From assembly GCF_000027125.1 (NCBI RefSeq), contig NC_017626.1: DNA of 64,000 bases, one strand, 5' to 3'. Below are positions 3,001 through 6,000 of the stretch, piece by piece. Numbering within the stretch: position 1 is the stretch's first letter; every line of letters starts with the position of its first letter. The stretch is from Escherichia coli 042. Its GTDB lineage: Bacteria > Pseudomonadota > Gammaproteobacteria > Enterobacterales > Enterobacteriaceae. The position numbers were made by a program.

Positions 3001-6000
3001 TCTGTTTTTTTCCGTCTTTATCGACCACTTCGGTATCTTTAATTAAATACGGTGTAAACATTGGCTGTTTGGTTCTGGCGTCAATGACGTTGGCATTTAC
3101 ATAAGGGAATTTCGCTCCCGCCAGCGCATTTTTCAGGTAATCCAGACCGTAGTTAAATTCATGATTGCCGAGTGTACCGACCGTATAATCCAGCGTATTC
3201 AGCGCCTTATAAACCGGATGAACATCACCTGTTTTTAATCCTTTCGCCGACATGTAATCTGCCAGCGGACTCCCCTGAATCAAATCGCCGTTATCGACCA
3301 GTACGCTGTTTTTCACTTCATTGCGGGCATCGTTAATCAGGCTTGCCGTACGTACCAGTCCGAATTTTTCCGTGGCGGTGTCTTTGTAATAATCGAAATC
3401 CATCATGTTGCTATGCAGATCAGTGGTTTCCATGATACGCAGATCGACCGTCGCTGCATTCACACTGGCGGCAATCAGCGTGGCCAGGAGCGTTGCGCTA
3501 AACTTAATCATCAGGGACATCCTTTTATCATCGGGAATACGAAAGAAAAGGGAGAATAAACGTCTTACTTATAGAACAGTGAAGAATGCCACAATTTTAC
3601 GCTTTGAAAATGATGACACTATCACAGTTGGCGCATTCATTAACGATAGGGTATAAGTAAAACAATAAGTTAACACCGCTCACAGAGACGAGGTGGAGAA
3701 ATGTTAGATCAAGTATGCCAGCTTGCACGGAATGCAGGCGATGCCATTATGCAGGTCTACGACGGGACGAAACCGATGGACGTCGTCAGCAAAGCGGACA
3801 ATTCTCCGGTAACGGCAGCGGATATTGCCGCACACACCGTTATCATGGACGGTTTACGTACGCTGACACCGGATATTCCGGTCCTTTCTGAAGAAGATCC
3901 TCCCGGTTGGGAAGTCCGTCAGCACTGGCAGCGTTACTGGCTGGTAGACCCGCTGGATGGTACTAAAGAGTTTATTAAACGTAATGGCGAATTCACCGTT
4001 AACATTGCGCTCATTGACCATGGCAAACCGATTTTAGGTGTGGTGTATGCGCCGGTAATGAACGTAATGTACAGCGCGGCAGAAGGCAAGGCCTGGAAAG
4101 AAGAGTGCGGTGTGCGCAAGCAGATTCAGGTCCGCGATGCGCGCCCGCCGCTGGTGGTTATCAGCCGTTCCCATGCAGATGCGGAGCTGAAAGAGTATCT
4201 GCAACAGCTTGGCGAACATCAGACCACGTCCATCGGCTCTTCGCTGAAATTCTGCCTGGTGGCGGAAGGACAGGCGCAGCTGTACCCGCGCTTCGGACCA
4301 ACGAATATTTGGGACACCGCCGCTGGACATGCTGTGGCTGCAGCTGCCGGAGCGCACGTTCACGACTGGCAGGGTAAACCGCTGGATTACACTCCGCGCG
4401 AGTCGTTCCTGAATCCGGGGTTCAGAGTGTCTATTTACTAAATTCAGATGGCAGAAACAGTGTATTTCCTGATTCTGCCATCCTGATTTCTCCCAACCTA
4501 AAAAGTTATAAATAAAAAGAGATTGTATTTAAAGTGCAAAAATTCAATTGCTAATAAGTTACATTTTAATAATGAGCGTTTTTTGATAGTTTACTTCTAT
4601 AATGAGATATTTAATGGCGACATAAAATAACCAAATAAAATAAGGTAGCCATATGTTACCCAGGATCAGACACAATAATTTTATTGGTGCGGTGGAGTTA
4701 TTCGTAAAATCATCGCATACAAAAACACATTCAAACAATTTTTTTTAATAATATTCAGCATGCATTTAAGAAAAAAGATTGGGTTTCGAATTATGATAGC
4801 CTGTTAACTTTGTGGGAGTTTTTTCGTTGCGCAACTCAGATTGATAAAGATAGTTATCAAGTGCTTTCATCAAAAAATGAAACTGTTAAAGCCATGGATA
4901 AGTTTCTTATCAGTTTCAGCCTTAAAGATAACGGTGCCGAATATACAATGACATTGCGAGGCAGTGGATTTGAATACGAAGAAATTCCCATAACAATAAA
5001 TGAGTATAACTCATTCATGGATTTCAAAAACCGCGAGTTTCCGTTAGAACAAAACAGAAGATTGTATGCCTGTGATATTTTGCAGAAAAAACAGTCTGAC
5101 ATACCAAAAAGGATTAAAGGTTATATTCGCCAGGCGTTTGGTGACGTATCTTTCGGTTATGCCTTATTGGAGGATATAGTAAGCAAATTAAAACGGGGTA
5201 AATTTGAACTCCAAATACCAGGCTGTGGAATTAAAGAATGCGATGGATGGTATATTTACGAAAAAATAATTGATGATAATTTTGCCATAGTCATAGAATC
5301 TTTGGGCTTTGCGCTTAAAATCTATGGAGGGGGTGAACGTTTTCGTAATGGTTCCTCTGTTGTTTTGGAGGATGAAGATTACTCTCTTATTTATAATTTT
5401 CTGGTTAATGCAGGTTGCCAACAAGTCGAATTAGCCGAACAAGTGGATGCGATAGTAAGTGCGAATCTGGCCGCAGATAGTAATATTACCAAAGAAAAGA
5501 TTTGCGAGAAATATAAATCGACCATTGAGGCATTTAAAAAAGAGCAACTAGCGTTACCAGTATGAGTTCGGCGTAAGAACTAAGAGACTTAATTCCCCTA
5601 TCCCATAGATAACGATAGGGGAAAATTATTTTTGCAGAATTTATGTTATTGCCATTATTTGAGCAACTTTTGCAGCAGGTCCATCACTTGCTGCACCTCT
5701 TCCTGTGTGAGCGCCCCGTCTTTGGCCCATTGCACGCGACCATCCTTATCCAGCACCACTACAGCGGAACTTTCTTCATCCAGCTGCCAGGCACCGCGCG
5801 CGACGCCATTGCTATCGACAATAAACTGCGACCAGGGATAAAGCTTTTTATTACTCTCCAGACTGCTGCGCACAAACATGCCGGAACCCGGAATCGCGTC
5901 GTCGGTGTTAACAATGGTGGTGGTCTGGTAACGATCGTGCGGTAACTTCGCTGATTTAATCGCTTCAATCAGCGTCGCGTTTTTCTCTTTTGCAGAGGTG

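What the first reader, a model, noticed from the sequence alone, without database searches (positions are those of the whole stretch)
4442..5640. AT-rich segment with a TTG-initiated ORF in the ytfI position
The 370 bp upstream of the ORF and the ORF itself are strongly AT-rich relative to the flanking cysQ and ytfJ. The only start available in the 251-codon frame is TTG at 4810, with no convincing RBS. This may be a horizontally acquired, H-NS-silenced gene or a decaying gene.
Basis: seen in the sequence. Interest (0 to 1): 0.25.

Follow-up and report, generated by a model that had tools for sequence, protein, structure and literature searches.

The report
Frameshifted ytfI pseudogene in AT-rich islet
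The "TTG-initiated ORF" is the leftover downstream part of the E. coli gene ytfI, broken in this strain by one extra T in a run of seven; ytfI sits in a small AT-rich accessory insert that is already known to be strain-variable and H-NS-bound, so the finding is real but ordinary.

Summary
The AT-richness is real. The cassette at 4442-5654 is 34% GC, against 55% for cysQ and 53% for ytfJ. TTG at 4810 is indeed the first start codon of the 251-codon frame.

That ORF is not a gene with an odd start. It is the 3' part of ytfI. The true start is ATG at 4653, with AAGG seven bases upstream. A T7-to-T8 slip at 4739-4746 shifts the frame and gives a stop at 4746-4748. Removing one T restores a 303-aa protein, 95% identical to K-12 YtfI. 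RefSeq already marks the identical locus in strain CV839-06 as "ytfI, frameshifted".

The T8 allele occurs in 26 complete genomes, and a sister strain differs only by having T7. Other lineages broke ytfI independently, through T6, an A-run deletion or IS1.

YtfI has no detectable homologue outside Escherichia and no assignable fold. Even so, it evolves under purifying selection (dN/dS 0.18-0.41, including the 52 codons upstream of the TTG).

The cassette is missing from about 70% of E. coli genomes. It is an old insertion into the ancestral 11-bp cysQ/ytfJ overlap. H-NS binding of this insert in K-12 is published.

Verdict: a known, annotated pseudogene allele of low interest.

The parts
4442..5654 (.). 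AT-rich ytfI cassette (34% GC). It is an insertion relative to the ancestral arrangement, in which the cysQ and ytfJ 3' ends overlap by 11 bp.
   Evidence: Composition. Presence/absence in 5,418 genomes: (1,609 with the cassette; the rest span 592 bp instead of 1,813). Empty-site sequences in E. coli and about 70 other enterobacterial species.
4444..4486 (+). Strong hairpin immediately after the cysQ stop (ATGGCAGAA...TTCTGCCAT), probably the cysQ terminator supplied by the cassette.
   Evidence: RNA fold -21.4 kcal/mol, z = -6.6. Inverted repeat I1. Conserved in all three ytfI lineages.
4583..4611 (+). Sigma-70-like promoter match (TTGATA-17-GATATT, with a TG extension) in the 28%-GC region upstream of ytfI. 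Candidate only.
   Evidence: The number of matches in the region is no higher than in shuffles, so this is weak.
4642..4645 (+). Shine-Dalgarno-like AAGG, 7 nt before the ATG at 4653.
   Evidence: Read from the sequence.
4653..4748 (+). True 5' end of ytfI: ATG plus 30 codons, then a premature TAA at 4746-4748 (followed by a second TAA).
   Evidence: Translation. The same start is annotated in K-12 MG1655 b4215 and in all intact alleles. dN/dS for codons 1-52 is 0.08-0.28.
4739..4746 (+). T8 homopolymer, the frameshift site. Intact alleles carry T7 here; another lineage carries T6.
   Evidence: Alignments and tract counts. The sister strain ETEC1731 is identical over 4442-5640 except for T7.
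4747..5565 (+). Remainder of ytfI in the +1 frame (272 codons plus TGA).
   Evidence: Translation. Deleting one T gives 303 aa, 95% identical to K-12 YtfI. PGAP annotates the pseudogene as 4653-5565 in the identical record.
5593..5633 (+). Hairpin TTCCCCTATC...GATAGGGGAA followed by AATTATTTTT. It is terminator-like for ytfI and lies between ytfI and the convergent ytfJ.
   Evidence: Fold -19.6 kcal/mol, z = -2.85. Inverted repeat I16. Conserved in L013 and L015.
5655..5672 (-). Remodelled 3' end of ytfJ: ...LLQKLLK* in cassette-bearing alleles, against the ancestral ...LLHKLLNK* / ...LLHKLINK* that overlaps cysQ.

Best explanation
The segment is the ytfI accessory cassette of E. coli, carrying a frameshift-inactivated ytfI.

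The gene and the lesion. The gene starts at ATG 4653, which has an AAGG RBS. Slipped-strand addition of one T to a T7 run (now T8, 4739-4746) puts TAA in frame at codon 32. The remaining 272 codons are left stranded in the +1 frame. The first start-like codon in that frame happens to be TTG at 4810, which creates the illusory 251-codon ORF. Translation from that TTG is unlikely, because it has no RBS and lies 60 nt beyond the upstream stop.

The cassette. It is a 1.2-kb, 34%-GC, single-gene insert. It entered the ancestral 11-bp convergent overlap of cysQ and ytfJ early in the history of Escherichia. It brought a hairpin terminator for each side and duplicated or remodelled the overlap, so both neighbours kept complete ORFs. 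It has since segregated as a presence/absence polymorphism, probably exchanged by homologous recombination in the flanks.

Expression and function. In K-12 the AT-rich DNA is bound by H-NS (published), so the gene is probably poorly expressed. That would explain the weak selection and the repeated loss of function. YtfI is a genus-restricted orphan of unknown biochemical function.

Shown: the frameshift, the true start, the population distribution, the ancestral empty site, purifying selection and the lack of homologues.
Inferred: silencing in this strain, the terminator roles, the insertion mechanism and the lack of translation from the TTG.
For: The frameshift and the true start:
- The ATG-4653 frame reads MLPRIRHNNFIGAVELFVKSSHTKTHSNNFF**. 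The next frame continues NNIQHAFKKKDW... to TGA at 5565.
- Alignment with K-12 and other alleles shows a single extra T at 4739-4746. The repaired protein is 303 aa and 95% identical to K-12 YtfI.
- RefSeq/PGAP annotates the 100%-identical locus in NZ_CP025753 as "ytfI, frameshifted", spanning window 4653-5565.

The T8 allele is real:
- 18 complete genomes are 100% identical and 5 are 99.9% identical with the same length. Three more carry T8 plus an A-run deletion.
- The sister strain ETEC1731 differs only by T7 and has an intact 303-aa gene.

Independent lesions in other lineages:
- T6 in L012, L103 and L109, about 5 of 59 rows sampled at even steps.
- A6 to A5 in L108.
- IS1 in L004, L008 and L110.

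The N-terminal region is coding:
- N-terminal residues are largely invariant across alleles down to 68% identity.
- dN/dS for codons 1-52 is 0.08-0.28, p <= 0.01. For the whole gene it is 0.18-0.41.

The cassette is variable and old:
- It is present in 1,609 of 5,418 genomes. The rest have cysQ and ytfJ overlapping.
- The same overlap is found in Citrobacter, Salmonella, Klebsiella, Enterobacter, E. whittamii and others.
- Divergent orthologues (77% and 69% aa) sit at the same site. Their dS matches the flanks: 0.70 against 0.64 and 0.59.

H-NS: PMC4720273, S10 Fig legend.
Against: - Nothing contradicts the frameshift reading.
- H-NS binding and silencing were shown for the K-12 allele, not for this strain.
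- The promoter match is no better than chance.
- UUU-UAA preceded by a T run could allow a low level of +1 ribosomal or transcriptional slippage, so the allele may be leaky rather than null.
- The long-term dN/dS below 1 shows the gene is useful somewhere. "Decay" is therefore lineage-specific, not general.
- The insertion mechanism (target duplication, terminal repeats) is only suggestive. A perfect 12-bp terminal inverted repeat is seen in one lineage but not in this allele.
Confidence: 0.9

Rival explanations
1. A genuine 251-aa gene initiated at TTG 4810.
For: The ORF exists and TTG is its first start-like codon. Gene callers have deposited 251-aa products of this kind in public databases (cluster P0007/P0019).
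Against: - There is no RBS.
- The 52 codons upstream are conserved and under purifying selection.
- Every 251-aa call examined comes from a frameshifted copy, a contig-truncated copy or a poorly assembled copy: L012 has T6, L010 and L011 sit at a contig end, and L009 carries several homopolymer indels.
- PGAP flags the locus as a pseudogene.
Confidence: 0.02
2. The extra T is a homopolymer sequencing or assembly error, and the gene is intact in the real organism.
For: Homopolymer indels are a common artefact. One related record (L009) does show several such indels.
Against: The same T8 is present in 26 independently sequenced complete genomes from pigs, humans, chicken, wastewater and an NCTC strain. 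A sub-lineage carries a further indel on top of it.
Confidence: 0.02
3. Phase variation: the T run is a contingency tract that switches ytfI ON (T7) and OFF (T6/T8) reversibly.
For: Both +1 and -1 changes have occurred at the same tract in different allele backgrounds. T7 and T8 alleles exist that are otherwise identical over 1.2 kb.
Against: - The tract is short (7).
- Within the window's allele group, 26 of 28 genomes are T8, and some have decayed further.
- Other alleles interrupt the tract (TTTTTAT in L003, TTTCTTT in L013) yet keep an intact ORF.
- Other inactivations use different sites.
- The pattern fits ordinary homopolymer mutability in a weakly selected gene.
Confidence: 0.07
4. Recoding: full-length YtfI is still made from the T8 allele. 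The route would be +1 ribosomal frameshifting at UUU-UAA (prfB-like), or RNA polymerase slippage on the T8 run (mxiE-like).
For: From sequence only: tRNA-Phe can re-pair after a +1 slip from UUU (4743-4745) to UUU (4744-4746), with a stop codon in the A site. T/A runs of about 8 or more are known to permit some transcriptional slippage (my own knowledge, not tested here).
Against: - The frameshift configuration is not conserved. Sister and all other alleles are in-frame with T7.
- There is no Shine-Dalgarno-like stimulator upstream of the tract.
- UAA followed by U is a strong stop context (my own knowledge).
- At best this would give leakiness, not a programmed event.
Confidence: 0.03

Closest known systems
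ytfI (b4215) of E. coli K-12 MG1655, "protein YtfI", 312 aa, function unknown
   Same: Same position between cysQ and ytfJ, same ATG start, same flanking hairpins. 95% aa and 96% nt identity after removing one T.
   Different: The window allele has T8 instead of T7, giving a premature stop at codon 32. It also belongs to the 303-aa C-terminal class, with TGA at 5563 where K-12 reads TTA and runs 9 codons further.
H-NS-bound strain-specific segments (xenogeneic silencing targets) as described by Higashi et al. 2016, PLoS Genet (PMC4720273)
   Same: AT-rich, strain-variable, inserted between core genes. ytfI is that paper's own example of an H-NS-bound specific segment in K-12, absent from SE11 and SE15.
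   Different: No donor or mobile-element copy can be found. The cassette has co-diverged with its flanks across Escherichia lineages. It is therefore an old resident, not a recent import. H-NS binding was not measured for this allele.
Homopolymer-tract frameshift pseudogenes / simple-sequence contingency loci
   Same: Loss of function through a +/-1 change in a mononucleotide run inside the coding region, and this has recurred in independent lineages.
   Different: The tract has only 7 units. There is no evidence of reversible, high-frequency switching, and further decay follows the first lesion.

Membership tests
ytfI orthologue (E. coli b4215) | Located between cysQ and ytfJ | tested here: met
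ytfI orthologue (E. coli b4215) | Full-length sequence similarity to K-12 YtfI | tested here: met
   95% aa identity over 303 residues after removing one T.
ytfI orthologue (E. coli b4215) | Uninterrupted reading frame (functional gene rather than pseudogene) | tested here: not met
   T8 gives TAA at codon 32. PGAP marks it "frameshifted". It is therefore a pseudogene allele of the family.
H-NS-silenced acquired DNA | Markedly lower G+C than the core genome | tested here: met
   34% against 50-55%.
H-NS-silenced acquired DNA | Variable presence among strains; absent from related genera | tested here: met
   Present in 1,609 of 5,418 E. coli genomes. The site is empty in Citrobacter, Salmonella, Klebsiella, Enterobacter and E. 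whittamii.
H-NS-silenced acquired DNA | H-NS occupancy and derepression in an hns mutant | not testable with these tools
   Occupancy is published for the K-12 allele only (PMC4720273). Derepression was not looked up or tested.
H-NS-silenced acquired DNA | Identifiable foreign source or mobile vector | tested here: not met
   There is no homologue outside Escherichia among 5.8e9 and 1.84e9 proteins. There are none in phages, and the only plasmid-collection hits are chromosome-sized records. The dS of ytfI is close to that of its flanks.
Phase-variable contingency locus | Repeat tract inside the ORF, with length variants that switch the frame | tested here: met
   T6, T7 and T8 variants.
Phase-variable contingency locus | Frequent reversible switching among close relatives | tested here: inconclusive
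   26 T8 against 2 T7 within the >=99.7% allele group, with further decay in 3 genomes. No tree or rate measurement was made.
Programmed frameshift / transcriptional slippage gene | The frameshift configuration is conserved among orthologues | tested here: not met
   All other E. coli alleles examined are in-frame at the tract with T7 or an interrupted run. The divergent L015/L019 lineage has T8 but is in-frame there, through a GTT codon.
IS / transposon-borne cassette | Terminal inverted repeats and target-site duplication | tested here: inconclusive
   The ancestral overlap CTATTTATTGA is represented at both junctions in altered form. A perfect 12-bp terminal inverted repeat occurs only in the L015/L019 lineage and not in the window.
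IS / transposon-borne cassette | A transposase or recombinase gene | tested here: not met
   YtfI is the only conserved ORF. It has no Pfam, NCBIfam, PADLOC or PHROG family.

The most novel reading that the evidence does not exclude
The cysQ/ytfJ convergent overlap may be a recurrent landing site for small AT-rich single-gene cassettes of an undescribed, non-autonomous mobile kind. Three observations point that way:
- ytfI occupies the site in E. coli and cryptic Escherichia lineages, and a pentapeptide-repeat gene occupies it in E. albertii.
- The 11-bp target appears to be duplicated at both junctions.
- A 12-bp terminal inverted repeat survives in one lineage.

On this reading YtfI would be a genus-restricted orphan protein with a new fold, whose expression is toggled by slippage at its T run.
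Probability: 0.08. Interest if true: 0.45.

Novelty: already known. Interest (0 to 1): 0.15.

Why it matters
It matters little beyond correct annotation. The locus should be read as a ytfI pseudogene (4653-5565, frameshift at 4739-4746), not as a TTG-initiated gene.

It is a clean small example of two things. First, an AT-rich, H-NS-bound orphan gene can persist for a long time in a genus while being lost repeatedly, through homopolymer slippage, IS1 and allele replacement. Second, mechanical ORF calling downstream of a frameshift produces spurious non-ATG "genes", and these do end up in protein databases (the 251-aa cluster).

Tried and rejected
- Counting T6/T7/T8 alleles with 45-nt diagnostic megablast queries failed, probably because of the low-complexity filter. 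I used alignment-span classes in evenly sampled hit lists instead and verified the classes on fetched loci.
- A Biopython dN/dS run timed out. I replaced it with my own Nei-Gojobori script.
- Function of YtfI, sequence searches: Pfam, NCBIfam, PADLOC and PHROGs gave nothing above noise. The PDB sequence profile gave nothing.
- I considered whether "IYGGDERF" (residues about 223-230) marks a degenerate GGDEF domain. I rejected this because Pfam gives no GGDEF hit even at E <= 1, and the predicted strand order before the motif does not fit that domain.
- Rfam found no RNA family in 4200-6600.
- Sliding-window divergence of L013 was too mosaic to support a clean claim that the 77% allele was introgressed into E. 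coli.

Full report
**1. What is there.** The window is E. coli, with the gene order cpdB(-) 1568-3520, cysQ(+) 3701-4441, the segment in question, ytfJ(-) 5655-6209, ytfK and paeA. The segment between cysQ and ytfJ (4442-5654) is 34.1% G+C. cysQ is 55.1%, ytfJ is 52.6% and the whole window is 49.8%. ORF 4810-5565 does begin with TTG as its first start-like codon, and nothing resembling a ribosome-binding site precedes it.

**2. The ORF is the tail of a frameshifted gene.** An ATG at 4653 is preceded by AAGG at a 7-nt spacing. It opens the frame MLPRIRHNNFIGAVELFVKSSHTKTHSNNFF, which then runs into TAA TAA at 4746-4751. The next frame, read from 4747, continues NNIQHAFKKKDWVSNYDSLLTLWEFF... without interruption to TGA at 5563-5565. 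Alignment with K-12 and two other E. coli alleles shows a single difference in length: a run of eight T at 4739-4746 where the others have seven. Deleting one T gives a 303-aa protein that is 95% identical to K-12 YtfI (b4215, 312 aa). RefSeq's PGAP annotation of strain CV839-06 is 100% identical to the window over 4142-5954. It already calls this locus "ytfI, frameshifted", with ends equal to window 4653 and 5565.

**3. The upstream 52 codons are coding.** In an alignment of 14 YtfI sequences reaching down to 68% identity, most of the first 57 residues are invariant. Pairwise dN/dS for codons 1-52 is 0.08-0.28, with binomial p between 0.0006 and 0.01. This is the same range as the following 88 codons. 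This settles the start codon. Orthologues share the ATG 157 nt upstream.

**4. The lesion is real, recent and not unique.**
- Eighteen complete genomes match 4442-5640 at 100%. Five more match at 99.9% with the same length.
- Three others carry T8 plus a 1-nt deletion in the nearby A run at 4771. That deletion does not rescue the frame, because the stops lie between the two indels.
- Strain ETEC1731 is identical to the window across the 1.2 kb except for T7, and it has an intact 303-aa gene. The slip therefore post-dates all the amino-acid substitutions peculiar to this allele (W54, C140, C190, G227).
- A different allele background carries T6 at the same tract (L012, L103, L109). About 5 of 59 rows sampled at even steps have this allele's span class, roughly 8% of cassette-bearing genomes.
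- A K-12-like allele in an O78 strain is frameshifted at a different A run.
- IS1 has replaced or truncated ytfI in at least three genomes.
- One allele has an in-frame 21-nt duplication.
- The 251-aa "proteins" in public databases (cluster P0007, 729 member sequences, many partial) come from such broken or contig-truncated copies.

**5. YtfI is a real but orphan protein.**
- A word-indexed search of 5.8 billion proteins returned only E. coli, Shigella and Escherichia sp. sequences.
- An exhaustive HMMER pass over 1.84 billion cluster representatives returned only fragments of YtfI at 67% identity or more.
- Pfam, NCBIfam, PADLOC, PHROGs and the PDB sequence set gave nothing meaningful.
- Nevertheless, whole-gene dN/dS is 0.18-0.41 in all pairwise comparisons. 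This is far from neutral, though ten times more relaxed than cysQ at 0.01-0.04.
- I cannot say what the protein does. The only functional hint found is a multicopy screen in which ytfI over-expression increased HOCl tolerance (PMC8228696).

**6. The cassette is an old insertion and is polymorphic in E. coli.**
- Only 1,609 of 5,418 complete genomes carry it. In the others the same query spans 592 bp instead of 1,813.
- In those genomes cysQ and ytfJ overlap tail-to-tail by 11 bp.
- The same abutting or overlapping arrangement, with the sequence CTATTTAYTGA in the closest genera, is found in E. whittamii and two other Escherichia lineages. It is also found in Citrobacter, Salmonella, Klebsiella, Raoultella, Enterobacter, Kosakonia, Kluyvera and others. 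The empty site is therefore ancestral and the cassette is an insertion.
- In cassette-bearing alleles the overlap is represented on both sides: CTATTTACTAA on the left and ...TTATTTGAG on the right. The ytfJ C terminus is changed from ...HKLLNK* to ...QKLLK*.
- E. coli's empty alleles keep the ancestral architecture, so they are not simple deletions of the cassette (inference).
- Divergent orthologues, 77% and 69% identical in protein, occupy the same site in other Escherichia lineages. Their synonymous divergence from the E. coli alleles (0.33 and 0.70) tracks that of cysQ (0.23 and 0.64) and ytfJ (0.10 and 0.59). The cassette has therefore been in place since before those lineages split.
- No copy exists in the phage collection. 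The four "plasmid" hits are chromosome-sized records.
- "Horizontally acquired" is thus true only in the sense of an ancient insertion of unknown source.

**7. Silencing.** Higashi et al. (PLoS Genet 2016, PMC4720273) use exactly this locus as their illustration of a strain-specific H-NS-bound segment. ytfI is present and H-NS-bound in K-12. In SE11 and SE15, which lack ytfI, there is no H-NS binding to the neighbouring genes. ytfI was also a disputed sigma-32 ChIP-chip target (PMC3870955).

**8. Other anatomy.**
- A strong hairpin lies directly after the cysQ stop (4444-4486, -21.4 kcal/mol, z = -6.6).
- A second hairpin followed by a T run lies after ytfI (5593-5633).
- Both are conserved in all three cassette lineages and look like the terminators the cassette supplies to the now-separated convergent genes.
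- One sigma-70-like match lies upstream of ytfI (4583-4611), but matches in the region are no more frequent than in shuffles.
- No Rfam family matches.

**9. Rival readings.**
- A true TTG gene and a sequencing error are effectively excluded (sections 2-4).
- Phase variation is not excluded. The same tract has changed in both directions, and T7 and T8 alleles exist that are otherwise identical. However, the short tract, the near-fixation of T8 in its allele group, the secondary decay and the use of other lesion sites all argue for ordinary homopolymer mutability in a weakly selected gene.
- The UUU-UAA context after a T run could allow trace +1 slippage. Because the configuration is not conserved, this would be leakiness and not programmed recoding.

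**10. Verdict.** It is right in its suspicion of decay, and its H-NS idea agrees with published K-12 data. The feature is an annotated pseudogene allele of a known, uncharacterised, H-NS-bound accessory gene. It is already known and of low interest.

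Noticed in passing
L023:3556-5062 (Escherichia albertii NBRC 107761): At the same cysQ/ytfJ junction E. 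albertii carries a different AT-rich insert (about 1.5 kb, 33% GC). It has a 385-aa ORF (3792-4949) on the ytfJ strand containing pentapeptide repeats (Pfam PF00805, E = 7.6e-12). It has no similarity to YtfI and a different hairpin after cysQ.
   Followed up: partly
L051:3559-5678 (Citrobacter youngae ATCC 29220); L075:3556-4459 and L078 (Kluyvera): Other lineages also have inserts at this junction. C. youngae has a 298-aa membrane-like protein ending in a Gly/Ser/Cys-rich tail, plus a 350-aa ORF with a CxxxCxxC motif (radical-SAM-like by eye). Kluyvera has a 0.9-kb, 55%-GC insert with one 350-aa ORF. The convergent overlap seems to tolerate, or attract, insertions.
   Followed up: partly
L015:2786-2797 and 4008-4019 (same in L019): A perfect 12-bp inverted repeat, ATTAATTCCATA / TATGGAATTAAT, lies exactly at the two ends of the ytfI cassette in the most divergent lineage. 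It is absent from the window allele and from L013. It may be a relic terminal repeat or may be chance.
   Followed up: partly
window 5104-5550: Between lineages, the C-terminal half of ytfI diverges two to three times faster (18-41% nt per 150-nt bin) than the N-terminal third (7-17%).
   Followed up: no
L004, L008, L110 (E. coli ETEC1738, MB53, XJ5.2): IS1 insertions have deleted or truncated ytfI. In L004 and L008 they also removed the 3' part of ytfJ. XJ5.2 has a second IS1 in cpdB.
   Followed up: partly
window 41200-43000 and about 45100-45600: There are two further strongly AT-rich stretches, with a minimum of 31% GC around 42200. The first holds a 503-aa ORF at 41760-43271 (+). They were not examined.
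   Followed up: no
L002:1-570 (E. coli DH1Ec169) and L008:426-2370 (MB53): The neighbouring cpdB is annotated as a pseudogene in these two records: an internal stop in DH1Ec169 and a frameshift in MB53. This may be strain-specific or an assembly artefact.
   Followed up: no
[not shown]
   Followed up: partly
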